Source of the DNA: a virus
Lineage: Duplodnaviria > Heunggongvirae > Uroviricota > Caudoviricetes
Virus record (IMG/VR): IMGVR_UViG_3300050821_009523
Strand: one strand, 5' to 3'
DNA: 64,000 nt
Positions 19,801 to 46,123 of this stretch are shown here, in pieces. A program made the translations under genes and the position numbers. Every line of letters starts with the position of its first letter. Position 1 is the first letter of the stretch. The notes under the pieces were generated by a model. It was not told the DNA's origin. It saw only the letters and a list, made by a program, of their open reading frames with translations, and ran no database searches.

Positions 19801-21611
19801 CCCTCGCCGCGATCAACAAGACTTGGGACGACGCCGAGAAGCTCGCAGGCAAGAACCATGCGGCGCTCGAAAAAATCAACAAGGACCGCGCCATAGAGAT
19901 CGCAGAGCTAAACGCACAGAGCCGTGCGGATATTTTTACTAAGGTGCGCGACTTCACGATGAACGGCAACGATAGCGTTGCGAAGCAAATGGACCAGGTT
20001 GGCGATAGCGCCAATACGCTGATCGCCTCGCTGCGCGAGCTGTGGAAGGCGGGTGTTATCACAACCCAAGAGCTACACCAAAATGCCAACGCTGTCCGCG
20101 CAGCCGCAAAGGCGCAGCAGGCGGCGCTCCTCGCGGCCTTTGAAAAAACCGTCAGCGATTTTATCAATGCGGGTAGCGGCAAAGCGTTCGCCGTTACGAG
20201 CGCTGTCGATGCCGTGGGGGACAGCGCTGACAAGCTGATCGCGAGCCTTACGGCGCTTGCACAGTCTGGCTACATCACGGCACAGCAGCTTGCGGACCAG
20301 TCCGCCGCCATCCGGCAAGCCGAGTTGCGGCAGCAGCAGGATATCGTCACGAATGCGGGTAACCAGTTGCTCCAAGAGCTTTACGGCTATCTGAAGGACG
20401 ATAAGGATGCCGCGAAACTCAAGTATGACCTCACGGTAGCGGATCTCCAAATGCGGCGCGCGGAACTGGAAATCGAGCTGACGACGCTCAATATGTCGAA
20501 GAGCATTTTGGCAGAGCTGGACCCGCTCATCGCAAAGGTGATCGCTGGCGGCCCAGCGCTCTTCGAAACAAATAGCAGCACCAACGCGGCAGCGGCGAGT
20601 AGCGCGACAGCCCTGTCAAACGCGCTCGATAGCGCCGTCACGTCGCTTAAGGAATTCCGCGACAGCTTGGGGCTCGACACCGCGCTGTCACCCTACACGC
20701 CGATGCAGCAATTCCAGATGGCGCAGGCCACCTATCAGCAGACTGCGCAGTTGGCGCTTACCGGAAATGCCCAAGCGATTCAGCAGCTCTCGACCGATGC
20801 GAAACAATATCTCACTGCCGCGCGCGCTTATCTGGGGAGCACCGAGGGTTATACAGAGATTTTCGACGCCGTGATGGCGTTGCTCAACAACATCCTGGCG
20901 GCGTTCCCCCCCGCTAGCACTACGGGCAACCAGCCGGCGGGACAGTTGACCGGGCCGGCCGGCCAGCCGCCGGATTACGTACTGGCATACGGCCCGAATG
21001 GTCAAACGGTACTCGTGCCGCCTGGCGCTGCCCTTGGCCCCGGGTGGAGTTTTGATCCGCAGCCACCCCCGCCGCCGGGCGGAGGCCCGAACATCGGCGG
21101 CGATCCGACGCACGGCCATGGCCCCGTGCCACCACCTAGTGGCGTGACGCCCCCCCCACCTGATCCGGCGGCGGCACTACAGACTCTGGCTGACAATGCA
21201 ACTACGGCCGCTGCGAATCTCGGGGCACTCGCCACCGGCTTCACTACGCTCGCGCAGGCACTTGCCGCAATGGCGGCGTCATTGCACGGACATGTGCCGG
21301 GCTTTGCGCTGGGAGGCGTTGTGTCGGGTGACCAGTTGGTGCGGGTAGGTGAGGGTGGGCCGGAGGCAATTATCCCGCTGGCGGGCGGCAGGGCCGTGCC
21401 TGTGCGGATTCAGGGCGGCGGCGCGCCAGCGGCCAGTAGTGACACCGGTGCGGTTGCAGCAGAAATCAGGGCGCTGCACGGCACGCTGATGACCGGTATC
21501 GTGCGGCTTGAGAAGGCGATTCTGAGCCAAGCTAGAGAGAACGCCACCACAAAGACTGCCGCGCAGCGCGCCAGCTCGCTTGTGCTTGTGGGGCGCCAAG
21601 TGAAGCAATGA
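13836..21611 (+). CDS. Tail tape measure protein (2591 aa)
   Basis: Giant Ala-rich helical ORF downstream of the G/GT chaperones. Hydrophobic segments around residues 340-780 typical of TMP cores. Coiled-coil repeats. C-terminal Pro/Gly-rich region. Confidence 0.85.
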   Translation: MADSESLLISVDPGGVVSGVRVAAASLDQLKASAASALTGVSGVTQAAGAFTGAASGMAQAAGTVTVALRTQSGAISQIAAQQAVMAQATQALATKYAGATGDMAAATTEWKAKVQEVYTYLLTGKEAFGSWATAGVTSYREVIDAVAEVETSLGLLMLTQGTYTTTAATATSATITEAAAMDALAAAIVQVREAQAATAGTGAVAGATQATTGVVNVTAIEAEAAARGADTTALNAEAAAAARLDAVLTDLAGKTTAASLRVMVAGDAPALALVNAELEQRDALIAAGAAMYSKEGEFIILNEAGAAAVRTQVVALQEQQAALAAVNAEQAETAGALGNIEAIGARMVIRMVLMGIVLALGAVVTKSVEAATAFENSMTRLQTLVGVSKTEADSYRGAMADIAVSTGQTADENAKAMFAITSEGMRGQSALDLLKASAEGAAVGLGDQTVVARTAAAAIEAYGAQNLSAKEAIGGLILAAREGNTTVESIASAFGRVLGVAAAVHVGFDDVISSIASFTRMGVSAQEAATGLRSTIQALELRNTKGANDALKTIGMSVASLREEIQSKGLAASLVDIVAKFNAAGSGAEAMAKIIPNIRGLAEVLSNANSQATAYVGISERVHAEMGTALDDANKIAEQNPANVFRQMTAAVGVAAIAIASGLLPQLVGVANAIKEAATSGDLQKWASVAATAFGGVVEIGKVLAAILANLPFLITAYAGSLAIAAAAETSVADAGAFVALRLEAIGAAIAANPVGAAAAAFVLLALAMNRVAVESIADSNAFLDETARMAAQEPVLARLRQGYDVLTKSIRDQGDALRENRDKGTVTAVPASTPSGSVTPGFGAQASTSANSFLGQMDAINKAYQVQVQAAGQDKTAVAAADAERTHEITNLQVSTQAFLDHARAVLTDRDAALKDQIANRDLVAEQLRQAQQRPTVRIGGADPITVRNPAIDQNAAALQNLNNQIKTNTTQLANDKAGLDAQQAALNKSKVAAQQTGTAHQDLAKGVQSAITAIKDQIALQAVEAADAAKVAQAELGGAEAVRQASIAAAADKQIREDVNKLVKAGMSDKAAETLVEKTYGDQIRKNATDLSNAAQEKARDAAIYQQGKTLAEAEAVAQAKVADAANGNTFASQQLTAQYRTEQEIERLFPNIHSADAEAFSAKQAAIENARVAGEKDSAAMKVQVEDSTKLREAEAALKDAIGNTTANSKELAIQLEAEKRIKEQGAAGDAVKVAAITAEVRSTRDSVDADKNKIEVLKDLAKYTDDEVKAEAKVQDLATRLGIERQMSPALAAIVAQYKELRTASEAVKTEELVQIEIAKKKIDLNATGAAAAIAQIRAEVIEREKTLDTLGKQEEALKQLADTEKSASATFGSDLKKSGEDAVVAWLTGTQVSFKNLLVQMDKDFADWLLKAGERALQENLAQKALGNLDSTFGGGGLPGQISVAFSGLDAAAQKIARAGDTMAGAGTVLRDSADIHTAAAATQTGAAATQTTAAVAHGAAATTQGAAAATNVGAAATHVVAAGTQVGAAGTQVGAGTTQVGASSTQTGAAATQSVAADTQVAAANENAASGAGNAAGGGGGLFGNIGSWFSGLGAGAIVGLIGAAVVIGAALIDSHQVDAWRARQYSTEANVSLTSGPQYSATGHLLSDFPAGAVNLGIGNMDATGQKFSEALQSFFMKFEQATGSILTQLPHIELQIKADGKDYAVVVAGQVIGFFQDVASATNAAIIAGLKAGNWKNLPQIIQDYITSATSPTGNQPAGVDPNVVLQNATTLKTIMDNYALALQGAGAAVSTTMQGFIDEADKMRQAVLSMHLSAQDTATMLSQIDATLAINIQAERDALTGHKESNAQMQAEEAAAFNAKKAIAVAQVLIDEQTILNMIATADATAGFGNAIGGVGAGIARTAEGMLKIVGVVTGGSQALVDAYNQLVAVEQQLQKIPDLKPGDVKIPGGSSSGASNAQQLADIFKQFDERNLGAYGKSLAAINKTWDDAEKLAGKNHAALEKINKDRAIEIAELNAQSRADIFTKVRDFTMNGNDSVAKQMDQVGDSANTLIASLRELWKAGVITTQELHQNANAVRAAAKAQQAALLAAFEKTVSDFINAGSGKAFAVTSAVDAVGDSADKLIASLTALAQSGYITAQQLADQSAAIRQAELRQQQDIVTNAGNQLLQELYGYLKDDKDAAKLKYDLTVADLQMRRAELEIELTTLNMSKSILAELDPLIAKVIAGGPALFETNSSTNAAAASSATALSNALDSAVTSLKEFRDSLGLDTALSPYTPMQQFQMAQATYQQTAQLALTGNAQAIQQLSTDAKQYLTAARAYLGSTEGYTEIFDAVMALLNNILAAFPPASTTGNQPAGQLTGPAGQPPDYVLAYGPNGQTVLVPPGAALGPGWSFDPQPPPPPGGGPNIGGDPTHGHGPVPPPSGVTPPPPDPAAALQTLADNATTAAANLGALATGFTTLAQALAAMAASLHGHVPGFALGGVVSGDQLVRVGEGGPEAIIPLAGGRAVPVRIQGGGAPAASSDTGAVAAEIRALHGTLMTGIVRLEKAILSQARENATTKTAAQRASSLVLVGRQVKQ
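18290..18560 (+). repeat. Internal tandem repeat in the tape measure gene encoding about 10 copies of an (A)AATQ(T/V)GAA-like motif
   Basis: Protein: TQTGAAATQTTAAVAHGAAATTQGAAAATNVGAAATHVVAAGTQVGAAGTQVGAGTTQVGASSTQTGAAATQSVAADTQVAAA. Confidence 0.5.
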
Positions 21612-24600
21612 GCGCCTATACGGACTTGCTGGCCGATGCGGACGCGCAGCTTGCGCTCCTTGTGGTGGTGTCGGGGCTCAACGCGCAATCCGGCCTCGTG
21701 GAGACGTACTACTTCTGCGACCAGGGGACGGCCAATACACCCGCGAGCGGCTTCATCACGGAGCCAACCGATACGCCGGCCAACCAGATCTTCGAACCGC
21801 GAATCATCTCGGCGCTATCGATCGACGCGTCTGTCGCGCAAAAGGACCAGTTTGGGGGCGAGAGCTTTCCCGCCTATGGCCCGTGGCAGTTTGACAACAC
21901 GGATGGCGGCAGCGCAACGCTCACGTCCCTCGTGGTTAGCGGCAATATCGCAACGGCTGCGTGTGCAAACCCGCACCCGTGGGGCAACGGCGCCCTAATC
22001 TCGATCCGCGGTGCGGCAAGCGCCGTCTACAACGTCACGCGGCAGCCCGTCACGGTGCCGGACGGCCCAGCGCCCACCACGTTTAGCTTTCCACTCGTGA
22101 CGGCCAACGCCACGGTCAGCGGGCCGCTTACCGCCACAAGCGGCCTCGACAATTGGCGGACGCTTTCGTTTGATGGGCAGTTGCTCATCGCGTACATCGT
22201 CGGCACGCGCTTTAACGGTACGGTTGTGGGTTGGGCGCAGGCAGGCGTCCCGTTTACCGGTACGGTGGCGGGTGACGCACTGGTGGACGAGCAGAAAGCC
22301 ACCCTGAATGCGCGTGACCTATCGGCGTATCTTTCGCGCGACGTGCAGACCCACCTCTACCGCGGCATGTCGAATTGCCTTGCGCTGGATGGCGCCACGC
22401 AGTATGCCGTCCTGACGAGTTTCGCAAGCAGCGCCGAAAAGACGTACGAGTGCTGGTTCCGCTGCAAGGGCAACAACGGCGCGGCCAACACCCAGACGGT
22501 TGCGTTTCAGGGGGTGCAGACCGGCGCGAATAACGAGGACTGGCACATTCAGATCGACACCGCGGGGCACGTTGGGTTTGTGGTATACAACGGGGGCGCC
22601 AGCAGCGTGGCCGTGACGGCAAGCACCGCAGACTACCGCGACGGAAAATGGCACCACGCGGCTTTGGCCATCACGACGGCTGGCGCGCTGATGTCAGCCT
22701 ATTTGGACGGCGTGCTGGTCGGCACCGCGACACCGGGTGCCTTCACGGTGCGTACCGGGAACCTCGTGGCGGGTGTCGGCACGGGTGGCAACTATTTCTA
22801 CGGCGAGATCGACGAGATCCGGTTCTGGTCCGTCGCGTTGGGGCAGCTTGAGATCCAGCAAAACATGGCACGCGAGCGCGTAGCGGACAGCCGCATGCGC
22901 GGCTATTGGCGTTGTAACGACAACATCAATAACTCGCTCTTTGACGCCAGCAACAACGGGCTCACCGGCAGGCTCACGGGCAACGTTGCGAACAATATGT
23001 GGACGTGGTCGGGCGAAGGTTACCCCGACATTGCGGGCCAGCAGAAGCCCTTTGCCGTAGGGCCAATTGCAGAATTTTCCCCTACGCTCGTGGACCCCGG
23101 CAGGCTTATCTACCAGGCCCATGACGGCGCCATCCTTGGTGTCCCGTGGGTTTGGGACAAGACGGGGCCGCTCACGCCGGCTGTGAGTTGGCAGATACTA
23201 GACGCGGCGCGCGGCTTTCTCCAATTGCTCGTCGCGCCGCAAGGTAAGATCTCATGCAGCGTCCAGCCGGCTACGAACATCTTTGGTAGTTGCCTGAGCT
23301 TTGACGGCGCTACGGGCTTTGCGAGTGCCACCTCGATGCCGTGCCCTGCCGGCAGCATGTCGCTCGAGGCACTCGTGCGCCTGCGGGCGATGAACGCGGC
23401 AAACGTAAAGATCGCTACCTTTTCGGCAAGTGGCGGCGTTGCGGCCGGGTTGCGGCAAGTGCAGTTTATGGCTGCTGGCCTAGCGCAGTTTAGCGTCCGG
23501 AACGACGCTGGCACTGCCTATAGCGCGACAGCTGCCGTGCCGGCAACACCAGGCTTGTGGTATTGGGTGGCGGGCGTGCTGGACGTACCGAACTTGCTGT
23601 TGACTCTCTATGTCAACGGCATTTCTGTCGCCACTGCCGCTGTGACAGGCACATTCAACACCGTGCTGTCCAACTTTTACATCGGGCGCCGCGATGATGC
23701 TGCGCAATACTTCCCTGGCGAGATCGACGAGGTACGCATCTGGAATGTTGTGCTCTCGGCCGCGACGATCAACGCCAACATGATGCGCGAATTGGCCGGC
23801 AACGAAACAGGCCTCGTGCACTATTGGGACTTTGACGACAACGCCGGCACCACAACGGCCGATGAGGTAGCGGGTGGCGCTACCGTGACGCTTGGCGGCC
23901 CAGCGGGTGTTGCGGCCTCAAGCACCGCCATCAGTGTGTCGAGCACGGACAACAGCTACAACCGTGCGGCGGGTAGTTTCGTGGCGGACGGCTTTACGGT
24001 GGGGCAACTGGTGCAGGCTTTTGGTTTCGCCAACGGCGCCAACAACGTGCAGTCCCGGATCGTGACGGTTGCGGCTGGCAAGATCACGGTCAACGTCTTG
24101 CTCACCACCGAGGCGGCTGCCACTGGCCAGACGCTTATCACAGCGGCCGGCTGCGCATGGGCGCCGTCGCGCTATTCGCGGGCAGACCTCGCGTACTGGC
24201 TCGTGACGGCCTCGCCCAATGCGCCGCTCAAGCCGGCGCAGATCGCCCTCGCGTCTTTCGTGCAGTTCAACATCGACGATAGCAGCGACAACGGCGAGTT
24301 GTGCGAGGCAAAGAAGGCGCGCACCTTCCTATCTGTCCTGGACGCGCTCATCAATTGGGACGGCTACTACGGCGGTACGCGCGCTGGCCTATTGCAGGTT
24401 GCATGCTTCAACCCGCCGACCGGCCTGACGTCAGCTGGCGACTTTGACGACAGCGCCATTACGGGCGATCTCGTACCAGTTGCACAGGCGCTCCCGGTCT
24501 ACGGCGTACAGGTCCAATATGCCCAAAATTGGGCAGTTTCTAGCCCGCAAGATATCATCGGGATCATTCAGTCGAACAGCGCGCGGTACAGCTTCGCCAC

Positions 24601-24919
24601 TAACCAATGGCGCACGGCGCCCAGCGGCCAGACGGTGCCGACCAGCACGTACCCAGATGGCGGCCTGCTGCTCGTCCCCACGACGCTACAGAGCCAAGCC
24701 GCGGCCCAAACGCTGTCGGACCGCCTTTACGGTATATACTCCGTACGGCATGACTACTACGAGGCGCCGCTAACGATCGTGCCGCTCTCCCTCGATACGG
24801 GTGCGGAGATCACCTTGCAGCGCAACCGGCTGGGCCTAGATGGCAAGCGGTGGTTCCGCCTCGTGGGGTACAAGACGGATGTCGATTTGCGGCAGATGAC
24901 CGCTAAAGTGTGGGCCTGA
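21608..24919 (+). CDS. Large tail protein (1103 aa) with two LamG/concanavalin-A-like lectin-type domains; candidate distal tail or baseplate protein
   Basis: Start overlaps the TMP stop. Two copies of a LamG_3-like signature (GEIDEIRFWSVALGQLEIQQNMARE and GEIDEVRIWNVVLSAATINANMMRE). Confidence 0.6.
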   Translation: MSAYTDLLADADAQLALLVVVSGLNAQSGLVETYYFCDQGTANTPASGFITEPTDTPANQIFEPRIISALSIDASVAQKDQFGGESFPAYGPWQFDNTDGGSATLTSLVVSGNIATAACANPHPWGNGALISIRGAASAVYNVTRQPVTVPDGPAPTTFSFPLVTANATVSGPLTATSGLDNWRTLSFDGQLLIAYIVGTRFNGTVVGWAQAGVPFTGTVAGDALVDEQKATLNARDLSAYLSRDVQTHLYRGMSNCLALDGATQYAVLTSFASSAEKTYECWFRCKGNNGAANTQTVAFQGVQTGANNEDWHIQIDTAGHVGFVVYNGGASSVAVTASTADYRDGKWHHAALAITTAGALMSAYLDGVLVGTATPGAFTVRTGNLVAGVGTGGNYFYGEIDEIRFWSVALGQLEIQQNMARERVADSRMRGYWRCNDNINNSLFDASNNGLTGRLTGNVANNMWTWSGEGYPDIAGQQKPFAVGPIAEFSPTLVDPGRLIYQAHDGAILGVPWVWDKTGPLTPAVSWQILDAARGFLQLLVAPQGKISCSVQPATNIFGSCLSFDGATGFASATSMPCPAGSMSLEALVRLRAMNAANVKIATFSASGGVAAGLRQVQFMAAGLAQFSVRNDAGTAYSATAAVPATPGLWYWVAGVLDVPNLLLTLYVNGISVATAAVTGTFNTVLSNFYIGRRDDAAQYFPGEIDEVRIWNVVLSAATINANMMRELAGNETGLVHYWDFDDNAGTTTADEVAGGATVTLGGPAGVAASSTAISVSSTDNSYNRAAGSFVADGFTVGQLVQAFGFANGANNVQSRIVTVAAGKITVNVLLTTEAAATGQTLITAAGCAWAPSRYSRADLAYWLVTASPNAPLKPAQIALASFVQFNIDDSSDNGELCEAKKARTFLSVLDALINWDGYYGGTRAGLLQVACFNPPTGLTSAGDFDDSAITGDLVPVAQALPVYGVQVQYAQNWAVSSPQDIIGIIQSNSARYSFATNQWRTAPSGQTVPTSTYPDGGLLLVPTTLQSQAAAQTLSDRLYGIYSVRHDYYEAPLTIVPLSLDTGAEITLQRNRLGLDGKRWFRLVGYKTDVDLRQMTAKVWA

Positions 24920-31475: not shown

Positions 31476-32504
31476 TTAGTGTATCACCTGCGCGCTGCCT
31501 GGCAGCGCGATCATCGGGACGGGCGATGCGCCGCCGCCAATGTAGAGCGGGTATTTCCCATCCCACTTTGACTGTAGGATCTCTAGCCGCTTCCATTCAA
31601 GCAAGGTGGGGGTGATGGACGAGGTAAGCGCGGCATTCGCCCTTGCTTCGCCCTCGGCAACCGCCACCCGCTTGTTGGCCTCGGCCTGCGACACTTTCAG
31701 CTCATTTACCGCCTGCTCTGCCTTCTGCACCGCCGCTACCTTGGCGTTGATCGCCTGCTGGATCTCGGGCGGATAATGCAGCTTCCCGATGATGCCCAGC
31801 TGTTCGATAGTCAAGCCGTATTGGGCAGTCATCTGGCTTAGTAGCGCGAGCACGGCATGTTCGTAGGCAGCGCGTTTCGTGCTATTGATCTCGTCGGCCG
31901 TGAAGTTACCCGAAAGGCGCCCAAACGCGATACGGGCCGTGTTGTGCAGGAACCCGTCAGTGAACGTTTTCAGATCATCGCTACGGAACTTGACATAGAA
32001 CGCCGGCACGTCCTTGTCCACGAGGTGGTAGGAAAGCGATACGTCGGCGCCCACCACCATGTTGTCACTGGTGTTGAATGTGATCTCCTCGTTGGGGTTT
32101 CCCTCGGCGGCATCCTTGGACCACACGACGGTTTGCACGTATGTCGGATATTGGAAGACCGTCGATCCGAACGGCATGTAGAAAACCCACCCGGTGGAGA
32201 GTGGCAGTTGGTTGACGCCGCGGTTGTCGCCTGCGTTCGATACCTTGATCCCCACATGGCCCGGGCCGATGCGCGTGCAGCCGGTAAGCAGCGGCACGAA
32301 AAGCGCCACCGCTACGAGGCGCAGCATCCACCGCCATGCGCTGGGAAAAACGGCGACACAGGCAGCGCACAGGCCGAGAATCAAAAAGATCCCCGCTGCA
32401 TTCTCCGCGTCGTCGCGCTGGTTGAGTAACGGCAGTATGAGAGTAAACAGATAGGCGCACACCACCGCGCCCAGGATCATGCATGCGATTTTCAGCGGCC
32501 TCAT
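31476..32504 (-). CDS. SPFH / band-7 (HflK/C, prohibitin, stomatin-like) domain membrane protein. An internal Met gives a lipoprotein signal (MLRLVAVALFVPLLTGC)
   Basis: SPFH-like region FRSDDLKTFTDGFLHNTARIAFGRLS...AEANKRVAVAEGEARANA. N-terminal TM segments and an LTGC lipobox. The alternative start is near 32327. Confidence 0.65.
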   Translation of the reverse strand: MRPLKIACMILGAVVCAYLFTLILPLLNQRDDAENAAGIFLILGLCAACVAVFPSAWRWMLRLVAVALFVPLLTGCTRIGPGHVGIKVSNAGDNRGVNQLPLSTGWVFYMPFGSTVFQYPTYVQTVVWSKDAAEGNPNEEITFNTSDNMVVGADVSLSYHLVDKDVPAFYVKFRSDDLKTFTDGFLHNTARIAFGRLSGNFTADEINSTKRAAYEHAVLALLSQMTAQYGLTIEQLGIIGKLHYPPEIQQAINAKVAAVQKAEQAVNELKVSQAEANKRVAVAEGEARANAALTSSITPTLLEWKRLEILQSKWDGKYPLYIGGGASPVPMIALPGSAQVIH

Positions 32505-32618: not shown

Positions 32619-32861
32619 CTAAACGCACCTGGCGGTATCGCAATTTTTCAGCGAGCAGCCGTTCGTGCAGTCCGTGATGCAGGTTAGCCCCTGCGTGCAC
32701 TGACAACTGATCGTGCAGCCGGCCCCCGTTCTGCAGTCTCCAGTCGCCGGGGGCTCCGACTGATCGCCGCAACCGCCACGGGCCACTCTCAGAAGCGCCG
32801 TCCGATCCAACGCCCGGATGGTTTCCTTGTTGAGGCTGAGCCGCCTTCGGTTCTTCTTCAT
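32619..32861 (-). CDS. Cys-rich peptide precursor with double-glycine-type leader (80 aa): leader MKKNRRRLSLNKETIRALDRTALLRVARGG, core with 10 Cys and many Thr/Ser
   Basis: Strong RBS AGAGGAGAAGGAC before the ATG. Non-hydrophobic leader ending GG. Core CGDQSEPPATGDCRTGAGCTISCQCTQGLTCITDCTNGCSLKNCDTARCV. High-GC3 codon usage consistent with the neighbouring genes. Confidence 0.5.
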   Translation of the reverse strand: MKKNRRRLSLNKETIRALDRTALLRVARGGCGDQSEPPATGDCRTGAGCTISCQCTQGLTCITDCTNGCSLKNCDTARCV

Positions 32862-33306: not shown

Positions 33307-33492
33307 TCACGTCGGCCTCCGCTTTGGGTCTTCCCACTTGTAGTGCGTCGCCTTGAAGGCGCGGACCCGTATTCGGTGGGGCCGCCGCGCGTCCCGTTGA
33401 TTTTCCGTCTGGCACAGTTTACCGGGCCGCGCGCCGCACTTGGGGCACGCTGTCTCGACTTCGCACTGCCACTGGTAGCGCGGTGTCATCAT
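33307..33492 (-). CDS. Small basic zinc-ribbon-like protein (61 aa)
   Basis: CPKCG...C motif. Start overlaps the PurA-like gene stop. Confidence 0.35.
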   Translation of the reverse strand: MMTPRYQWQCEVETACPKCGARPGKLCQTENQRDARRPHRIRVRAFKATHYKWEDPKRRPT

Positions 33493-34763
33493 GGTGTATC
33501 CTCCACAAACTGCATAACCTCGGTTTCGCGTGCTGTCGCGGCCGTAGGTCCATGCAGCGTAAGTGCTACCGGCACGTAGCAGCTGTCCTCGATAGCCGCA
33601 ATAAGGTCCTCTGCGTACGAATATTGCGGCGCGGCGTGCTCCATTACGTGGGTGCGTGAGTCTGCCTGTATATTCGAGAGCTTGACGCGGTCGGGCAGGC
33701 GCTTTAGTCCGGCATAAAGGTAGTTGTTGGCGTAGCGCGCCGTCGGCCTTCTGTCCATGTGCGTTATGGCGAGCACATCAGGCTTGGCGGAGGCGCAGGC
33801 GTAGCGCGCCGTCACCATGTCGAAGCACCCGACGCGGAATGGCCCCATCCAGTGGTGCAGGCTGTTGTGCTGCTCGGGCACTCGTTGTGCTAGCGCGGCG
33901 TATTCTGTAGGAAACGGCCCGGGGCCGTGGCGCGTAGCGTAGCTGCGCAGGACGCCGATATGTAGCCGGTCGGTGCAGCCAACCTCATTGAGCAGTGTGT
34001 CTGCATTGTGAAACGTAGCGTCTGTCCAACTGTTGTAAGGCGCAAAGCCGTGTACCGCATCGATGAGCAAGCCCTGTGCGCCCTCAAAGACGACGGCGTC
34101 CGCTTTGGCGAGCACGTTGTTTGTGGTGCGTAGCTCCATTTCCCCGAGCGCGTCCTGGTAATTAGCAACGATCTCGGCCGGTACGATCTTTTGCGCCTCG
34201 CGGTATTGTTGGTTTGCAGTGCCGAGCGGCCGTAATTGAGACAACGTCAGTGCGCGGATGAATGTCAGTAATGCTTCGCCCGCTGCCGCAGCGTCAGCGC
34301 GGCCCACAACGTCGCCCACACGCAGGGCCAGATCCTGCGATGCACTTACCAGCGCCTCGCCCACACCGAGCCCTACGCTGCCGTGCCGCGCGGCACCGCG
34401 CTCTATCTCGCGTGCCTGACACAGCAGCCGGTGCCAAGGCGTCACGATCACGCACCGCGGATCTATCGAGATGCGCGGGCGCAGCCCCTTGCAGGTGAGC
34501 ACTTGGCGCTCGACGTCGAGAGCCAGCGGATCGACGATCATAAAGCGCGATAGGTGGGTAGCGGCGCCAGCGAGCGTGCCGGCGCCGAATTGGCTAAAGC
34601 CGTGCGTGGTGCCGGTTTCGGCGTCCACGACGTGGTGCAACGCTTGCGGGCCGCCGTTGTAGCGCACCACAATGTCGGCCTTGTGCTTGCGCACCAGGAA
34701 GTCGGTCAGGCAACCTTTCCCCTCATCGCCGTATCCCAAGCCCGCAACGCAATAAGCTCTCAT
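33489..34763 (-). CDS. Adenylosuccinate synthetase family protein (PurA/PurZ-like), divergent
   Basis: GLGYGDEGKGCLTDFL matches PurA GTQWGDEGKGKIVDLL. VVRYNGGPQALHHV matches VVRYQGGHNAGHTL. VFEGAQGLLIDAVHG matches MFEGAQGTLLDIDHG. YATRHGPGPFPTE matches YSTRVGAGPFPTE. The aspartate-binding loop GATTGRRRRTGWLD is replaced by HHWMGPFRVGCFDMV. Start refined to Met 52 of the listed ORF. Confidence 0.7.
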   Translation of the reverse strand: MRAYCVAGLGYGDEGKGCLTDFLVRKHKADIVVRYNGGPQALHHVVDAETGTTHGFSQFGAGTLAGAATHLSRFMIVDPLALDVERQVLTCKGLRPRISIDPRCVIVTPWHRLLCQAREIERGAARHGSVGLGVGEALVSASQDLALRVGDVVGRADAAAAGEALLTFIRALTLSQLRPLGTANQQYREAQKIVPAEIVANYQDALGEMELRTTNNVLAKADAVVFEGAQGLLIDAVHGFAPYNSWTDATFHNADTLLNEVGCTDRLHIGVLRSYATRHGPGPFPTEYAALAQRVPEQHNSLHHWMGPFRVGCFDMVTARYACASAKPDVLAITHMDRRPTARYANNYLYAGLKRLPDRVKLSNIQADSRTHVMEHAAPQYSYAEDLIAAIEDSCYVPVALTLHGPTAATARETEVMQFVEDTP

Positions 34764-34970
34764 GAGCAGCGCTCCGCCGGCTTGTGCGTGGCGCGCCACT
34801 CTGCGATGGCCTGCTGCTGCGTGAGGCCGCGCGCCGCAGCGCAGAGGAGCCAAAGGCCAGGGATTTCGTACCGTGCGCCAGCGTGCGTGCTGACGCCAAC
34901 CTTGCCGTCGAAACAATTCAACTCGTAATCCATAGCCTTTGGCCCTCCCGGTGCCGTATGCCGATGTTCG

Positions 34971-35987
34971 TTACAGCCGCTCGACCTCGCTGGCGTCGCC
35001 CACCACAGCCGGCAGGCCGGCTGCAGAGTATTTGTCCAGCGCGCCGCCGCCGCCAGCCTTTGCGAGCGGCACGAGCGCCTTGGCCATCGCGTCCGTGATG
35101 ACGCCGTCCGTGAGCATGTCCTGGACGCCGACGTGCTCCTCGCACAGCGCCACGGCCGCCACGATCGTCTCGCAGATCTTGTTGGGCTCGTCCAGCTTGA
35201 GGACGTTTTGCTGGCCGAGGAGCGCCTGCCAGTAGCGGCGCAGCTCGTCGTCGTGGTAGTGCTGTGTCATGTTGGGGATGACGAAGAAAACGTGGTACCG
35301 CTGCTGCGCCTCCCGCACGATCTCTTCCAGCGGGATGTTGGCCTGGATCTTGTCGCCGATGATCGCCGCCACTTGCTCGCGCGACACCTGCGGGTAGGCG
35401 TGCTCGTCGCCGATGAGAAAGAGGTAGCCGCGTCGCCCCCTTTTCTCCCAATTGTCGTGCGCCGTCTTGCGGGCGTAGAAGTACAGGCCCAGCTCGTATG
35501 ACTCCTGGTAGGTGCCCCCGCCGTTAGCTGTCAACCAGATGTTTTCGAGGTCGTTGTCGATCTCAAGGCCGGACTCGAACTGGCCGACTTGTAGTGCGCC
35601 CTCGCCACGTATGCTACTCATCGCGTCGTAGTCATCCACCGCGCCGATGCAGATGGCTGGGTAGGCGTCGCCGATGTAGCGCTTGCCGCTGGCCTTGTCG
35701 TCGAGAAAGGCGCCCATCAGTTTGGTGAGCCGTTCTTCGATGATGCCCGGCACATCGCGCATGCTGCCGGTGGTGTCGAGCAAGAGCCCGATCGGGAGAG
35801 AGACGGGGTGCGCGTCGCTGTCGCGCGCCTCGCGCACCTTGACGCCCTTGGGGCTCAGGCTCGCATGGACGCCGTGCGCCTTGCCGCTGGCCACCGCTGC
35901 GGTGTGCTTGAACACCGGCGTGGCGGTCGCCAACCGGGCCGCTACGCGGGCACTGTAAGCCGTGCTGCTGTAAACGCTGCCTCCCAT
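34971..35987 (-). CDS. von Willebrand factor type A (vWA) domain protein (338 aa)
   Basis: MIDAS motif LLLDTTGSM (D-x-S/T-x-S), then downstream T and D residues. Start at the internal Met with RBS AAAAGGAGCAA. The upstream part of the listed ORF is low-complexity. Confidence 0.65.
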   Translation of the reverse strand: MGGSVYSSTAYSARVAARLATATPVFKHTAAVASGKAHGVHASLSPKGVKVREARDSDAHPVSLPIGLLLDTTGSMRDVPGIIEERLTKLMGAFLDDKASGKRYIGDAYPAICIGAVDDYDAMSSIRGEGALQVGQFESGLEIDNDLENIWLTANGGGTYQESYELGLYFYARKTAHDNWEKRGRRGYLFLIGDEHAYPQVSREQVAAIIGDKIQANIPLEEIVREAQQRYHVFFVIPNMTQHYHDDELRRYWQALLGQQNVLKLDEPNKICETIVAAVALCEEHVGVQDMLTDGVITDAMAKALVPLAKAGGGGALDKYSAAGLPAVVGDASEVERL

Positions 35988-36006: not shown

Positions 36007-36990
36007 TCAATTGACTGGTATGTCCAGCCGGACGAACTGCGGTTTGCCGTATTCGGTGAGGGCCACTTCGCGCCAGCGGTCGTGGAGTTGAAACACGCTT
36101 TCTGGCCGCGCGGCCGGAGACTCTGCCGTGCACCACTCAAACAGGCCACGAAAGCGCTTGGGTATCGTATCGCCCTTGCCCGCCGCGCGGCTGGCGGCGT
36201 ACCACATCGCGGCAGCCGCCATGTAGATATCGGTGGCACAGTAAGCGTCTTTCTTGAACACCTCGGGCGGGTAGTGTGCCCGCCACTTCTTAGAAACCAA
36301 CGGTATGTGCCACTTGCTTGGAAAATCGACACTGCACACCCAATCCACCAGGACAAGTCCGTGGTCGTCCGGCCTGTAGAGAAGATGGTGCGGCAGCACA
36401 GCGCCGTGGATCAGGCCGTGGCTGTGGGCATAGCCGAGAATTTCTAGTAGCCGGTTCATCATCCACACCACATGCCGAAACGGCAAGCCACCAGGAAACG
36501 CCTGCCGGATGTGCGTCAGCGGCAAGCAGCCTTGCGCCAGAGACAGCACGTTAACCGCGCGGCCAGATGCCTCAAAAGCATCGTGCACTAGCGGCAGGTA
36601 ACGCTTGAAAGCGTCCGTTTTATTGTCTGCGTGCAGCGTCTTAAGAGCTGCGCGTTCTTGCGCGAGCAGCGCGTTGTCGCTAGCGGTGCGCACGATCTTG
36701 GCTACCGCCTCGGTGCCATCGAAAGCCACGAGGTAAAGATCGGAGATCGCGCCGCGCGCCAACGGCGCAGTGACGGTCCACTTACCCAGCTTGATGGCCG
36801 GCGCGTTGCCGTTGACAAGTGCATGCATCTCGCCTAGCCGCTTAAAGGCGCGCTCGGCCCTGTCGCGCTGGGCGGCCTCGATCCTGTCCGGGTGGCAGAG
36901 TGCGGCTAACTGCTTAAAGGTGGCCGCCGCAAAGATGTCCGCCGGCACCTTGGCGCACTCGATCAGGCGCAGCGCAGCTTCGGTTGTCAC
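36007..36990 (-). CDS. J-domain (DnaJ-like, HPD motif) fused to a protein-kinase-like domain lacking the catalytic HRD aspartate (probable pseudokinase)
   Basis: N-terminal FKQLAALCHPDR...RAFKRL (J domain). Kinase-like VAKIVR (beta3 Lys), LAQERAAL (alphaC Glu), HGLIHGAVLPHHLL in place of HRDLKPxN, and LVDW in place of DFG. Confidence 0.55.
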   Translation of the reverse strand: MTTEAALRLIECAKVPADIFAAATFKQLAALCHPDRIEAAQRDRAERAFKRLGEMHALVNGNAPAIKLGKWTVTAPLARGAISDLYLVAFDGTEAVAKIVRTASDNALLAQERAALKTLHADNKTDAFKRYLPLVHDAFEASGRAVNVLSLAQGCLPLTHIRQAFPGGLPFRHVVWMMNRLLEILGYAHSHGLIHGAVLPHHLLYRPDDHGLVLVDWVCSVDFPSKWHIPLVSKKWRAHYPPEVFKKDAYCATDIYMAAAAMWYAASRAAGKGDTIPKRFRGLFEWCTAESPAARPESVFQLHDRWREVALTEYGKPQFVRLDIPVN

Positions 36991-44023: not shown

Positions 44024-44376
44024 GCACTGCGCCGAATCGCAACCCTCGCCCCGGCGACCTCCGCGTCTGGTGGGCGCCCCAGATCCCATGCGAACCGTAC
44101 GTCGTGCCGGTAACCAGCGTTGCCGAGGGCGCCAAGTTGCTGTCGGTGTTGGCGGCCTATGATCTATTCCAGTTGCGCATCCACGCAAAACCAGACTACA
44201 GCAACATGGGCGGCTTGCTGGTTTTCGAGGCCGACTGCGACGGCGATGGAAGACCAGGATGGAGCGAATGGACCGACGCGGACGGCTACACGGTTAACGA
44301 AAGCCCGCTGTGCTTTGTGCCGCAAGAAGATTTCTGGCTGCGACAGGGCTCCGGGCCGCTTCCGGAGGACGCATGA
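44020..44376 (+). CDS. Hypothetical protein (118 aa, GTG start)
   Basis: Overlapping start-stop. Protein-like composition. Confidence 0.35.
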   Translation: MSTAPNRNPRPGDLRVWWAPQIPCEPYVVPVTSVAEGAKLLSVLAAYDLFQLRIHAKPDYSNMGGLLVFEADCDGDGRPGWSEWTDADGYTVNESPLCFVPQEDFWLRQGSGPLPEDA

Positions 44377-45251
44377 ACGCCATGCTACAGCCGGACACGC
44401 ACCCCTATGTGGTGGACGCCCTAGAACTCGCAGGTATTCGGCTGGATGGCGGCACGCAACCGCGCGTGGCCTACGACGATAACACCGTCCTGTTTCTCTG
44501 CCACCAGATCCAGGCGAGTTACGACCGAGGAGGCGGCCTTCCGCCCATCGTGGTTTTCTTTGATGGCCGCGATCACTGGCTCGCCGACGGCTTCTACCGC
44601 GTCAAGGCAGCCATGCGCGCCAACCGCACCGCACTGCCGGCCAAGATCCACCCCGGCACGCAGCGCGATGCCATTCTGTATAGTTGCGCCGCCAACCTCC
44701 GGGGCGGCAAGCCGCGTGCCAATGCGGACAAAGCGCGCGCCGTGGACACGCTGCTGCACGACCCGGAATGGCGCAAGTGGAGCAACATGCGCATTGCGGA
44801 GCACTGCGGTGTATACCGTGGCTCTGTCGCCAAGCGTGCGGCCCTGCTTGGAATACCGCGCGCCATAGAACAGAGGCCCGCACCCCAACCGCCAAAGACC
44901 GGCAAGCGCAAGGCCGTCGAGATCGCTTTACGGCGCGACCCATTGGCTACCGGGCGTGCGATCGCTAGTGCGGCCGGTTGCAGCACGGAGCTTGTCCGCG
45001 ACGTCCGCCTAGCACTTGGCATTGCGCCGCCCCCCAACCGGCATGGCGCTAGCCCGAAGGCCCGCAGTGCACAGCTCGACAAGACAGTGCTCTCGATCGA
45101 GACCCATGCGGAGATGCTCGCCGCTTTGGATCTCGCGCCCATGGCCGGCGATCCGCGCTGTGCGCAATGGGTTAACCGCCTCAACAATACGATCGGCTTG
45201 GTGCGAAAGGTGCGCAACGCACTACAAGCCGCGAGCGGGAGGACGGCATGA
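44373..45251 (+). CDS. ParB/Sulfiredoxin-domain (ParB-like nuclease domain) protein (292 aa)
   Basis: GGLPPIVVFFDGRDHWLADGFYRVKAAMRAN resembles the ParB N-terminal box (PI.V...DG.Y.L..G.RR..AA). Confidence 0.55.
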   Translation: MNAMLQPDTHPYVVDALELAGIRLDGGTQPRVAYDDNTVLFLCHQIQASYDRGGGLPPIVVFFDGRDHWLADGFYRVKAAMRANRTALPAKIHPGTQRDAILYSCAANLRGGKPRANADKARAVDTLLHDPEWRKWSNMRIAEHCGVYRGSVAKRAALLGIPRAIEQRPAPQPPKTGKRKAVEIALRRDPLATGRAIASAAGCSTELVRDVRLALGIAPPPNRHGASPKARSAQLDKTVLSIETHAEMLAALDLAPMAGDPRCAQWVNRLNNTIGLVRKVRNALQAASGRTA

Positions 45252-46123
45252 CGGCAGCAGCAACACTCACCCACATCAAGCGGCCAGCGCCAGCGAAAAG
45301 GCCGGCGGCAGACGACACTACCGTATGGCTAAAGATCTGCGACCTGGAAATCGAGCCGCGCGCACAACGCCCCTACAGCGAAAAGCGCGCGCAGCGGTAC
45401 GCCAACGAGTTTGACCCTGACTATGTCGGTGTGCTGCAAATCTCCGAGCGCGAGGATGGCCGCCTGTACATCATCGACGGCCAGCACCGCGTAGGGGCGA
45501 TGCGCATCCTGGGTTGGGATGACCAACGGGCCGAATGCAAGGTGCACCGCGGGCTGACGCTCGCGGACGAGGCGCGGCTTTTCAACCATTACAACGACTT
45601 TGCACGCCCCACACGGTTCGATAACTTCATGGTGCGCATCACGGCGCGCGATCCGGACGCGGTGGCAATCGACGAGATCGTCCGCGGCATCGGCCTGTGC
45701 TGGCAGATGGGCGGCGAAATGGCCACAAAAGAGGGGCGCATCAGTTGCGTCGCGTCACTCGAAGGCGTCTATCGCGGCCTCAATTACAGCGCCAAGACGC
45801 GCCAGCCGATCGTGCTGCGCGATGTCTTGTTGCTCGCCAAGGGCGCTTGGGGCCTACAGCGCGACGCCTTTCGTGGTGAGATCGTCCAGGGGCTCGGCGC
45901 CTTCTTGCTGCGCTACGGCGCCAAGGTGGATAAGGAACACTTGCGCAAGCGGCTGGCAAGCGCGGACGGCGGCGCACTCGGGCTGATCGGCAAAGCCCGC
46001 ACGGTGCGCAGCCTAGAAGGAGGCGCCGTGGCATCAGGTTTCGCCAAGGTGCTGGTGTTGCTGTACAACAAGGGGCTCGGCCAAAACAAGCTGCCCGGCT
46101 GGCAGGGCGAGGAGTTGGGATGA
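45248..46123 (+). CDS. ParB/Srx-fold protein with a DGQHR motif (291 aa)
   Basis: LYIIDGQHRVGAMRILG. Confidence 0.55.
   Translation: MTAAATLTHIKRPAPAKRPAADDTTVWLKICDLEIEPRAQRPYSEKRAQRYANEFDPDYVGVLQISEREDGRLYIIDGQHRVGAMRILGWDDQRAECKVHRGLTLADEARLFNHYNDFARPTRFDNFMVRITARDPDAVAIDEIVRGIGLCWQMGGEMATKEGRISCVASLEGVYRGLNYSAKTRQPIVLRDVLLLAKGAWGLQRDAFRGEIVQGLGAFLLRYGAKVDKEHLRKRLASADGGALGLIGKARTVRSLEGGAVASGFAKVLVLLYNKGLGQNKLPGWQGEELG

What the first reader, a model, noticed from the sequence alone, without database searches (positions are those of the whole stretch)
33489..34763. Divergent adenylosuccinate-synthetase-family (PurA/PurZ-like) enzyme in a phage early operon, with the aspartate-binding loop replaced
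The PurA P-loop GDEGKG is clearly present. The IMP-site glycine-rich loop, the FEGAQG motif and the GPGPFPTE motif are also present. The conserved GATTGRRRR aspartate-binding loop reads HHWMGPFRVGCF instead. Phage PurA homologs are best known as PurZ, which makes the diaminopurine (Z) precursor for Z-genomes. A changed substrate loop could instead mean a different nucleophile or nucleotide substrate. No DatZ (HD), MazZ or dedicated polymerase is visible in this window, so the pathway context is unclear. It is therefore worth testing as either a Z-base or another nucleotide-modification or anti-defence activity.
Basis: partly seen in the sequence, partly recalled or inferred. Interest (0 to 1): 0.8.

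Follow-up and report, generated by a model that had tools for sequence, protein, structure and literature searches.

The report
PurA-like enzyme in vWA–kinase cassette
This phage gene resembles the purine-synthesis enzyme PurA and keeps its GTP-driven catalytic core, but it has lost the aspartate pocket and always sits next to a vWA protein (usually also a DnaJ-type kinase-like protein) in hundreds of phages and bacteria, so it belongs to an uncharacterised enzyme system rather than to Z-DNA or AMP synthesis.

Summary
Window 33489-34763 (minus strand) encodes a 424-aa protein with a full PurA fold. The P-loop, Asp13, His41, Gln224 and the guanine-specific Asp333 are invariant across 56 relatives. 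Every aspartate-binding side chain is replaced or deleted: Thr300 becomes aromatic, Thr301 becomes Gln/Met, Arg303 is deleted and Arg305 becomes Phe.

The Z-base reading is not supported. The protein keeps Asp13, whereas PurZ has Ser there. It scores 36 bits against a cut-off of 300 on the PurZ model. Its fold is closer to long PurA than to PurZ. No DatZ, MazZ, DpoZ or PurB homologue was found in the 72 kb I could read.

The gene is the last member of a mobile cassette: J-domain kinase-like protein (usually without the catalytic Asp), then a MIDAS vWA protein, then the PurA-like gene. The vWA gene accompanies it in 74/74 viral loci and 65/68 bacterial loci examined, including about 200 cluster C1 mycobacteriophages. 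I found no literature on this cassette.

Most likely the enzyme uses GTP to activate a purine 6-oxo nucleotide and couples it to an amine other than aspartate, acting with or on the vWA partner. The chemistry and the biological role are inferred, not shown.

The parts
33489..34763 (-). PurA-like GTP-dependent enzyme, 424 aa. Third and last gene of the cassette.
   Evidence: Pfam PF00709, E 2.4e-48. AF2 model pLDDT 88.9; Foldseek TM about 0.8 to E. coli and mouse PurA. Below the NCBIfam cut-offs for both PurA and PurZ.
34713..34730 (-). P-loop GDEGKG (aa 12-17), containing catalytic Asp13 and Lys16.
   Evidence: Both residues invariant in 56/56 family members.
33819..33869 (-). Replaced aspartate loop (aa 299-315, HNSLHHWMGPFRVGCFD).
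   Evidence: Against E. coli: T300->W, T301->M, R303 deleted, R305->F. The family pattern is HN..H.W(Q/M)G.FR.G.(F/L)D.
34760..34933 (-). Small 57-aa ORF between the vWA and PurA-like genes. Uncertain and not conserved.
   Evidence: ORF list. No family hit. Sebata has a non-homologous 88-aa gene (gp262) at the same place. Related phage L001 has none.
34971..35987 (-). MIDAS-containing vWA protein, 338 aa (MGGSVYSS...EVERL). Second gene of the cassette.
36007..36810 (-). Kinase-fold domain of the first cassette gene. It lacks the HRD catalytic Asp (IHGAVLPHH).
   Evidence: PHROG 3043 'kinase', E 2e-41. PADLOC PD-T4-6, E 1e-9. The family profile aligns HGA to HRD of StkP, E 1e-12.
36811..36990 (-). 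J-domain (DnaJ-like) at the N-terminus of the kinase-like protein. HPD motif at aa 33-35.
   Evidence: Profile A4 hits only J-domains in the PDB, best E 8.6e-8. An HPD motif is present in 46 of 64 cassette kinases.

Best explanation
The gene encodes a PurA-fold, GTP-dependent enzyme of a distinct and widespread subfamily. It is neither the AMP-pathway PurA nor the Z-base PurZ.

The phosphotransfer machinery is kept: P-loop, Asp13 base, His41 acid, Gln224 and the guanine-reading Asp333. I therefore expect it still uses GTP to phosphorylate the 6-oxo group of a bound purine nucleotide.

The pocket that holds L-aspartate has been replaced by an aromatic/His/Gln pocket. The activated C6 would therefore be attacked by a different amine.

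The enzyme does not work alone. It is the last gene of a mobile cassette: J-domain kinase-like protein, MIDAS vWA protein, PurA-like enzyme. I infer three roles:
- The vWA protein, with its near-invariant N-terminal Met-Gly, is the obligate partner, either as amine acceptor/substrate or as targeting/regulatory subunit.
- The kinase-fold protein, which usually lacks the catalytic Asp, is a nucleotide-binding scaffold that docks on the vWA C-terminal Arg-Leu tail.
- Its J-domain couples the complex to host DnaK.

What is shown: fold, retained and lost residues, gene linkage, the J-domain, the vWA fold, and the absence of Z-pathway genes.

What is inferred: the purine substrate, the new nucleophile, the physical complex, DnaK recruitment, and the biological role (host takeover or an inter-genome conflict function).
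For: Fold and family:
- PF00709, E 2.4e-48.
- AF2 pLDDT 88.9, and TM about 0.8 to ligand-bound E. coli PurA 1cg3 and mouse 1iwe.

Retained catalytic set in 55-56 of 56 members: D13, K16, H41, Q224, D333.

Lost Asp site: R303 deleted 56/56, T300->W/F/Y, T301->Q/M, R305->F 51/56. The role of R303 in binding aspartate and the IMP O2' is stated in PMC8342488.

New family-invariant residues around the nucleotide pocket: Q40 (for N38), H54, H127, E136, H279 (for V273), H299.

Linkage:
- Same gene order in mycobacteriophage Sebata gp260-263.
- Same order in a related 97-kb phage.
- 65/68 bacterial loci have the vWA gene, 58/68 the kinase gene, and 54/68 have the order kinase->vWA->PurA-like.
- 74/74 viral loci have the vWA gene, 66 of them directly upstream on the same strand, and 59 have the kinase gene.
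- No other gene is shared across loci.
- Rhizobium phage TM30 and Vibrio phage pv27 keep the vWA + PurA-like pair without a kinase.
- One possible vWA-PurA-like fusion ORF exists in L078.

vWA termini:
- 128/135 representatives start with MG.
- The [RK][LIVM] C-terminal tail is present in 90/120 loci with the kinase against 3/19 without it.

The J-domain and the HRD->HGA substitution rest.
Against: - There is no biochemical or genetic data for any family member, and literature searches found none.
- The nucleotide pocket is itself changed. Of the four IMP 5'-phosphate ligands, N38 is Q, T129 is V/C, and R143 (supplied by the partner subunit in PurA) is not conserved. The substrate may therefore not be a simple NMP.
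- Conserved catalytic residues do not prove turnover. The protein could be a nucleotide-sensing switch.
- The linkage counts come from the 80 best-matching loci per collection and from related genomes. The tail/kinase association is not corrected for phylogeny.
- The kinase HMM was built from few seeds, so 'kinase absent' may include misses.
- A few kinases keep HRD (for example L081), so not all are pseudokinases.
- No complex prediction could be run.
Confidence: 0.5

Rival explanations
1. PurZ-type enzyme. It condenses dGMP with aspartate to start 2-aminoadenine (Z) synthesis, giving a Z-genome.
For: It is a phage-encoded PF00709 homologue. PHROG 1211, which it matches at E 7.7e-56, carries the PurZ-derived label '2-aminooxy adenylosuccinate synthetase'.
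Against: - Asp13 is kept, whereas PurZ/PurZ0 have Ser in 147/147 phage sequences.
- The PurZ NCBIfam model gives 36 bits against a cut-off of 300.
- No PurZ chain is found by phmmer at E<=1e-3.
- Foldseek TM is about 0.6 with 15-18% identity to 7odx, 6fm1 and 7vf6.
- tblastn with PurZ gives E 0.011 at best.
- PurZ needs aspartate, and the Asp site is gone.
- D333, which specifies guanine as energy donor, is kept, whereas S-2L and phiVC8 PurZ have Q/N there.
- No DatZ, MazZ, DpoZ or PurB in the window plus 7.9 kb.
Confidence: 0.02
2. Auxiliary metabolic PurA. An ordinary adenylosuccinate synthetase carried by the phage to boost AMP supply.
For: Closest solved structures and best HMMs are bacterial PurA. 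The GTP-site and catalytic residues are intact.
Against: - 128 bits against an equivalog cut-off of about 400.
- All aspartate-binding side chains are lost in the whole family.
- No PurB is carried.
- A metabolic enzyme would not need an obligate vWA partner and a J-domain kinase-like protein.
- The family also occurs in genome bins labelled Patescibacteria (Saccharibacteria, Kaiserbacteria, Moraniibacteria).
Confidence: 0.04
3. One-step aminase. The enzyme uses GTP and ammonia (or another small amine) to convert IMP/ITP-type nucleotides directly to adenine nucleotides. This could repair a purine pool damaged by host deaminase or depletion defences. The vWA and kinase proteins would act only as regulators.
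For: - The catalytic core is kept while the Asp pocket is replaced by a smaller, uncharged aromatic/His pocket.
- The pocket around the ribose-phosphate is remodelled with His residues, which could accept a different phosphate state.
- In Rhizobium phage TM30 the pair sits beside NAD-salvage-type genes, and in pv27 beside ribonucleotide reductase.
Against: - Pure inference; no ammonia channel or glutaminase partner is evident.
- It does not explain the 100% linkage to a vWA protein with conserved termini, nor the presence of the full cassette in many bacterial chromosomes.
Confidence: 0.12
4. Non-catalytic or slow GTP/IMP-sensing switch. The PurA fold has been recruited as a purine-status sensor within a signalling complex with a pseudokinase and a vWA adaptor.
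For: - Its partners are a protein-interaction module (vWA) and a kinase fold that usually lacks its catalytic Asp.
- From my own knowledge of E. coli PurA: it undergoes large ligand-driven loop ordering and forms 6-phosphoryl-IMP without aspartate. Structures with that intermediate are among the best fold matches.
- Loss of the second substrate site fits a switch.
Against: Strict invariance of the base Asp13, acid His41, Lys16 and Gln224 over about 35-40% identity divergence is more typical of an active enzyme.
Confidence: 0.15
5. Effector of a defence or abortive-infection (or superinfection-exclusion) system. On a trigger sensed by the kinase-like/vWA proteins, the enzyme depletes GTP or IMP, or makes a toxic or signalling purine nucleotide.
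For: - Patchy distribution across many phyla and phages, and a self-contained mobile three-gene module.
- Some bacterial copies lie next to nSTAND-WD40 or integrase genes.
- The kinase resembles defence kinases PD-T4-6, PglW and MAD6 at low scores.
Against: - No PADLOC model matches the PurA-like or vWA proteins.
- The cassette matches about 200 Mycobacterium phage records (those fetched or listed are Bixzunavirus, lytic cluster C1 phages by my own knowledge) and many large phages. That suggests a function serving phage growth.
- Neighbourhood evidence for defence islands is anecdotal.
Confidence: 0.12

Closest known systems
Adenylosuccinate synthetase PurA (E. coli AdSS, PDB 1ade/1cg3; Pfam PF00709)
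   Same: Full-length fold (TM about 0.8). P-loop GDEGKG. Asp13, Lys16, His41, Gln224. FEGAQG and GxGPFPTE motifs. Guanine-specific Asp333. Thr/Ser at position 239.
   Different: - 21-30% identity.
- Far below the NCBIfam equivalog cut-offs.
- Aspartate ligands T300, T301, R303 and R305 are all lost.
- N38->Q, T129->V/C, V273->His, K331->His/Asn/Cys.
- The inter-subunit Arg143 is not conserved.
- Always encoded with a vWA partner.
PurZ / PurZ0 (2-aminoadenine pathway; PDB 7odx, 6fm1, 7vf6)
   Same: Phage-borne PF00709 homologues. The same PHROG label is applied to both.
   Different: PurZ differs as follows:
- Ser at position 13.
- A short, archaeal-type fold.
- Q/N at position 333 in S-2L and phiVC8, which use ATP/dATP.
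- Aspartate is kept as substrate.
- Co-occurs with DatZ, MazZ and DpoZ, or with DutZ and DmtZ.

None of these features applies here.
'PurA-like adenylosuccinate synthetase' of cluster C1 mycobacteriophages (Bxz1, I3, Sebata gp263)
   Same: Same subfamily (36% identity; all family-specific residues shared) and the same cassette: Ser/Thr kinase gp260, hypothetical (vWA) gp261, small gp262, PurA gp263.
   Different: Only annotated by similarity. No function is reported in the papers found. The Sebata protein is slightly longer (442 aa).
P-loop NTPase + vWA pairs such as MoxR-vWA (NorQ/NorD, CbbQ/CbbO, BchI/BchD) and kinase-vWA 'TerY-P' triads (from my own knowledge of the Aravind-lab literature; MoxR-vWA conflict systems are cited in PMC13622651)
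   Same: A MIDAS vWA adaptor encoded next to a nucleotide-hydrolysing partner, sometimes with a Ser/Thr kinase. NorD and BchD vWA domains are among the structural matches.
   Different: The NTPase here is a PurA-fold enzyme, not an AAA+ ATPase. There is no PP2C phosphatase. The kinase carries a J-domain and usually lacks the catalytic Asp.

Membership tests
PurA (adenylosuccinate synthetase, EC 6.3.4.4) | PF00709 fold with GTP P-loop and catalytic Asp13/His41/Gln224 | tested here: met
   all are present, and invariant in 56/56 relatives.
PurA (adenylosuccinate synthetase, EC 6.3.4.4) | Aspartate-binding loop (E. coli T300, T301, R303, R305) | tested here: not met
   W, M, deletion and F in the query. 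The same pattern holds family-wide. The role of R303 is stated in PMC8342488.
PurA (adenylosuccinate synthetase, EC 6.3.4.4) | IMP 5'-phosphate ligands N38, T129, T239 and R143 from the partner subunit | tested here: inconclusive
   N38->Q (55/56), T129->V/C, T239 kept as T/S, R143 not conserved. Residue roles are from my own knowledge of the E. coli structures.
PurA (adenylosuccinate synthetase, EC 6.3.4.4) | Curated equivalog score (NCBIfam NF002223 / TIGR00184) | tested here: not met
   128 and 126 bits against cut-offs of 402 and 396.
PurA (adenylosuccinate synthetase, EC 6.3.4.4) | Makes adenylosuccinate from IMP + Asp + GTP; complements purA | not testable with these tools
   Needs an enzyme assay or genetics.
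PurZ / PurZ0 | Asp13 replaced by Ser (100% of 147 phage PurZ/PurZ0, PMC12884076) | tested here: not met
   the query and 56/56 relatives have Asp.
PurZ / PurZ0 | Curated PurZ model NF038379 | tested here: not met
   36 bits against a cut-off of 300.
PurZ / PurZ0 | Membership of the PurZ clade / short archaeal-type fold | tested here: not met
   - TM about 0.6 and 15-18% identity to PurZ/PurZ0, against about 0.8 to long PurA.
- no PurZ hit.
- a neighbour-joining tree (few outgroups) puts the 56 members in one clade that excludes both PurZs and E. coli PurA.
PurZ / PurZ0 | Genomic co-occurrence with datZ/mazZ/dpoZ (or dutZ/dmtZ) | tested here: not met
   no homologue of S-2L or phiVC8 DatZ, MazZ or DpoZ in the 64-kb window plus 7.9 kb. 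About 24 kb of the 97-kb contig was not readable. DutZ and DmtZ were not searched.
PurZ / PurZ0 | Z (2-aminoadenine) in virion DNA | not testable with these tools
   Needs LC-MS of nucleosides.
vWA-linked PurA-like subfamily (defined here; includes cluster C1 mycobacteriophage 'PurA-like') | Family signature: Q40, H54, H127, E136, H279, HN300, W/F-(Q/M)-G-x-F-R310, with D13/H43/Q230/D337 kept (query numbering) | tested here: met
vWA-linked PurA-like subfamily (defined here; includes cluster C1 mycobacteriophage 'PurA-like') | MIDAS vWA gene immediately upstream on the same strand | tested here: met
   Window 34971-35987. Family-wide: 74/74 viral and 65/68 bacterial loci.
J-domain (DnaJ) family, for the neighbouring kinase-like protein | Helix II - HPD - helix III signature matching J-domain profiles | tested here: met
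   only J-domains are hit in the PDB, best E 8.6e-8. HPD lies at aa 33-35 of the window protein.
Hanks-type Ser/Thr protein kinases, for the neighbouring kinase-like protein | Catalytic-loop HRD Asp and Asn (HRDxKxxN) | tested here: not met
   HGAVLPHH aligns to HRDLKPQN of StkP. The beta3 Lys, the alphaC Glu and the DFG-equivalent Asp (DW) are kept.

The most novel reading that the evidence does not exclude
The PurA-like enzyme transfers a GTP-activated purine nucleotide onto a protein amine, with the near-invariant N-terminal glycine of its vWA partner as the prime candidate. This would create a covalent protein-N6-purine nucleotide adduct, a kind of protein modification not described before. 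A DnaK-recruiting pseudokinase would control it.

A variant of the same idea: the cassette makes a new N6-substituted purine nucleotide that large phages and bacteria use as a signal or weapon.
Probability: 0.1. Interest if true: 0.9.

Novelty: new variant of a known kind. Interest (0 to 1): 0.7.

Why it matters
About a third of a thousand phage PF00709 homologues in GenBank are not PurZ, by subtraction from the counts in PMC12884076 (481 homologues, 147 PurZ; the paper does not break down the rest). They are currently labelled 'PurA-like' or, wrongly, as the PurZ activity.

This work shows that a large share of them form one subfamily. That subfamily also has relatives in at least 578 bacterial species-representative genomes and 533 IMG/VR contigs. 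Its members cannot bind aspartate and always come with a vWA protein.

Three consequences follow:
- It corrects an annotation that would otherwise suggest Z-genomes.
- It defines a compact, mobile, uncharacterised three-gene system with testable parts: GTP-dependent enzyme, MIDAS adaptor, J-domain kinase-like protein.
- It offers tractable models, namely cluster C1 mycobacteriophages on M. smegmatis.

If the enzyme uses a new nucleophile, this would be new purine or protein-modification chemistry at the phage-host interface.

Tried and rejected
- Z-pathway search. tblastn of S-2L PurZ/DatZ/MazZ, phiVC8 PurZ/DatZ/DpoZ and E. coli PurB against the window and the 7.9-kb extension found nothing.
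- Defence-system membership. PADLOC has no model for the PurA-like or vWA proteins.
- DNA similarity to known phages. No megablast hit for window 30-40 kb.
- Literature. Nine searches on PurA-like, vWA, kinase, J-domain and pseudokinase in phages found no description of the cassette. Two papers that looked promising concern MoxR-vWA/Esx signalling and SrfA, and are unrelated.
- SPFH as a fourth component. An SPFH gene lies 1 kb downstream in the window, but it is not found in the other loci.
- Sequence-profile search of the vWA protein against the PDB found nothing. The fold was only recognised by structure.
- Walking to the rest of the contig. Two look-ups with window proteins near the right end failed. 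The window's right end turns out to lie about 650 bp from the contig end, and about 24 kb to the left stays unread.
- An early reading that Thr239 had become Asp was an alignment slip and was corrected.
Full report
**1. The observation**

The ORF lies on the minus strand at 33489-34763, with ATG at 34763. A longer TTG-initiated version (to 34916) is unlikely, because every homologue starts about ten residues before the P-loop.

The protein (424 aa) matches Pfam PF00709 at E 2.4e-48. HHWMGPFRVGCF stands where E. coli PurA has GATTGRRRRTGW.

**2. Neither PurA nor PurZ by curated or structural criteria**

- NCBIfam PurA equivalogs give 126-128 bits against cut-offs near 400. The PurZ model gives 36 bits against a cut-off of 300.
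- phmmer against the PDB finds bacterial PurA (best E 3e-27) and no PurZ at E<=1e-3.
- An AlphaFold model built on 55 homologues is confident (pLDDT 88.9, pTM 0.89).
- That model superposes on full-length PurA structures with TM about 0.8 (1cg3, 1iwe). It reaches only about 0.6, at 15-18% identity, on PurZ (7odx, 6fm1), PurZ0 (7vf6) and the short archaeal PurA.
- A recent survey defines phage PurZ/PurZ0 by replacement of catalytic Asp13 with Ser in 147/147 sequences (PMC12884076). This protein has Asp13.
- tblastn with S-2L and phiVC8 DatZ, MazZ, DpoZ and PurZ, and with E. coli PurB, finds nothing in the window or in a 7.9-kb extension of the contig.
- The other window genes I scanned (about 30 ORFs) are ordinary phage functions: two ParB-like genes, a ParB-methyltransferase, a RecE-like exonuclease, a replication initiator, DnaB, a helicase, HNH, and a Holliday-junction resolvase.

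**3. What is kept and what is lost**

I aligned 56 family members (35-50% identical to the query) with E. coli PurA and two PurZs.

Invariant or nearly invariant, in E. coli numbering:
- Asp13, Lys16, His41, Gln224 and Arg306.
- Asp333, which reads guanine.
- Position 239 stays Thr/Ser.
- Ser414 is kept in 49/56 (Leu in the query).

Lost in the whole family:
- Thr300 -> Trp/Phe/Tyr.
- Thr301 -> Gln/Met.
- Arg303 deleted in 56/56.
- Arg305 -> Phe in 51/56.

Arg303 is the residue that holds aspartate and the IMP O2' (PMC8342488).

The nucleotide pocket is also remodelled:
- Asn38 -> Gln (55/56).
- Thr129 -> Val/Cys.
- Val273 -> His (56/56).
- New conserved residues: His54, His127, Glu136 and His299.
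- Arg143, which the partner subunit supplies in PurA, is not conserved.

The plain reading is that GTP-dependent phosphotransfer chemistry is retained, aspartate is not the second substrate, and the first substrate may differ from plain IMP.

**4.

Immediately upstream, on the same strand, lie two genes.

The first is a 338-aa protein at 34971-35987.
- It has a DTTGS MIDAS motif.

The second is a 327-aa protein at 36007-36990.
- It matches phage and defence kinases.
- Its N-terminus is a J-domain. A profile of 15 such N-termini hits only DnaJ J-domains in the PDB, best E 8.6e-8, and the HPD motif is present.
- The kinase profile aligns to the Hanks kinase StkP at E 1e-12, with HGAVxPxH opposite HRDLKPQN.
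- The catalytic Asp and Asn are therefore absent, while the beta3 Lys, the alphaC Glu and the DFG-equivalent Asp remain.
- A few members keep HRD (for example L081).

**5. The three genes form a conserved, mobile cassette**

- Mycobacteriophage Sebata (cluster C1) has the same order: Ser/Thr kinase gp260, gp261 (vWA homologue), small gp262, PurA gp263.
- About 200 Mycobacterium phage records match the gene at about 36% identity, and every record listed carries a 'PurA-like' annotation.
They span Actinomycetota, Chloroflexota, Myxococcota, Planctomycetota, Acidobacteriota, Pseudomonadota, Abditibacteriota and Patescibacteria.
- Of the 68 fetched bacterial loci with enough upstream DNA, 65 have the vWA gene, 58 the kinase gene, and 54 the exact order kinase->vWA->PurA-like.
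- In IMG/VR, 533 contigs encode a relative, many on phages of 100-500 kb.
- Of 74 usable viral loci, 74 have the vWA gene (66 directly upstream on the same strand) and 59 the kinase.
- Clustering all ORFs in these loci finds no fourth shared gene.
- Rhizobium phage TM30 and Vibrio phage pv27 carry a more distant vWA + PurA-like pair without a kinase.
- One Bdellovibrionales MAG has both domains in a single 978-codon open frame. This may be a fusion or an assembly error.
- A variant arrangement has the kinase and vWA genes divergent from a zinc-ribbon/coiled-coil protein plus the PurA-like gene.

**6. The vWA partner**

- Its family comprises about 1,370 clusters at 50% identity with E<=1e-10. 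No Pfam or NCBIfam model covers it.
- The termini are unusually conserved. 128/135 representatives begin Met-Gly, mostly as M-G-x-[GSN]-x-[YWF]. 59/135 end in Arg-Leu.
- The basic-hydrophobic C-terminal tail tracks the kinase. It is present in 90/120 loci with the kinase and 3/19 without (Fisher p about 1e-6, not corrected for shared ancestry). It is commoner when the kinase has the HPD motif: 75/90 against 15/30.
- The N-terminal motif is independent of the kinase.
- I read this as follows. The N-terminus belongs to the core vWA/PurA-like function, and the tail belongs to the kinase/J-domain interaction. Both readings are inferences.

**7. Mechanism**

Shown:
- A PurA fold with an intact GTP site and catalytic residues.
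- No aspartate site.
- Obligate genomic pairing with a MIDAS vWA protein.
- Frequent pairing with a J-domain kinase-like protein.

Inferred (confidence about 0.5 for the general scheme):
- The enzyme phosphorylates the 6-oxo group of a purine nucleotide with GTP.
- It couples C6 to a non-aspartate amine.
- It acts with or on the vWA protein.
- The J-domain brings in DnaK.

The identity of the amine is open. Rivals are listed with their weights: PurZ 0.02, ordinary PurA 0.04, ammonia-dependent one-step aminase 0.12, non-catalytic purine-sensing switch 0.15, defence or exclusion effector 0.12.

The most novel reading not excluded is covalent transfer of the purine nucleotide to the vWA N-terminal glycine or another protein amine (about 0.1).

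**8. Comparison with the known, and novelty**

- The protein works most like PurA in its first half-reaction. It fails the PurA membership test at the aspartate site and at the curated cut-offs. It fails every PurZ criterion tested.
- It is a member of the same subfamily as the unstudied 'PurA-like' genes of cluster C1 mycobacteriophages.
- NTPase-vWA pairs (MoxR-vWA) and kinase-vWA triads are known as a design principle. I could not find one with a PurA-fold enzyme or a J-domain kinase-like protein in nine literature searches.
- I rate it a new variant of a known kind, with interest 0.7. It is not a Z-genome lead, but it is a widespread and experimentally tractable unknown.

**9. Limits**

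- Linkage statistics come from the 80 best loci per collection, and many of those loci are related to each other.
- The kinase HMM may miss divergent members.
- The neighbour-joining tree had few outgroups.
- About 24 kb of the 97-kb contig could not be read.
- No complex modelling or ligand docking was possible.
- The expression timing ('early operon') was not tested.

Noticed in passing
window 32619-32861 (-): 80-aa Cys-rich peptide (MKKNRRRLSLNKETIRAL...ARGG, then a core with 10 Cys). Its leader matches the NCBIfam class I lanthipeptide leader model at 21.7 bits against a cut-off of 22. This looks like a RiPP/bacteriocin-type precursor carried by a phage. No LanB/LanC-type gene was looked for.
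   Followed up: partly
window 31476-32504 (-): SPFH/Band-7 lipoprotein-like gene (Pfam E 9e-31; PHROG 200), three small genes downstream of the PurA-like gene. The window SPFH profile hit nothing in the other loci searched. In L004, a 776-aa zinc-ribbon/coiled-coil protein next to the PurA-like gene might contain an SPFH-like stretch; this was not tested.
   Followed up: partly
window 1444-2001 (-): 185-aa protein matching only the PCRF/GGQ-containing middle part of peptide chain release factor 2 (TIGR00020, E 2.9e-30, far below cut-off). This is a phage-encoded release-factor fragment.
   Followed up: no
L177 21063-21194 (about 8 kb left of the window start, same contig): A 482-aa gene with a weak TROVE (Ro60-like) Pfam hit. 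Vibrio phage pv27, which has the vWA + PurA-like pair, also has a 502-aa 'RNA-binding protein' nearby.
   Followed up: no
window 13836-21611 (+) and 21608-24919 (+): Two very large adjacent ORFs (2591 aa and 1103 aa) in the structural region. They were not characterised.
   Followed up: no
window 50724-52070 (+): A 448-aa protein combining an N-terminal ParB-like nuclease segment with a DNA methyltransferase (PHROGs 15396 and 12517/498). Two further ParB-like genes lie at 44310-46123.
   Followed up: no
L078 6372-9305 (+) (Bdellovibrionales MAG): The vWA and PurA-like domains lie in one uninterrupted 978-codon frame. This is either a natural fusion, which would support a physical complex, or a sequencing error that removed the stop codon.
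   Followed up: partly
L004 2113-3591, L020 2255-3850, L057 6443-7885, L078: A subset of the vWA proteins carries an insert of about 150 aa with a conserved DLDLHV..P.G.HIY(Y/F)...CGG.LDVD.N motif. In the L004/L096 type of locus, this vWA variant occurs together with the divergent gene arrangement that includes a zinc-ribbon/coiled-coil protein.
   Followed up: no
L092 3237-3950 (Vibrio phage pv27) and L093 2747-3538 (Rhizobium phage TM30): In the two kinase-less phages, the gene in front of the vWA gene (separated by one small gene in TM30) encodes a homologous, strikingly Met/Gly-rich protein (runs such as MMMMQQMMGG) of unknown function.
   Followed up: no
window 33307-33492 (-): A 61-aa phage zinc-finger protein (Pfam Phage_zn_bind_8, E 2.6e-7) whose start overlaps the stop of the PurA-like gene. 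It is not conserved next to the cassette elsewhere.
   Followed up: partly
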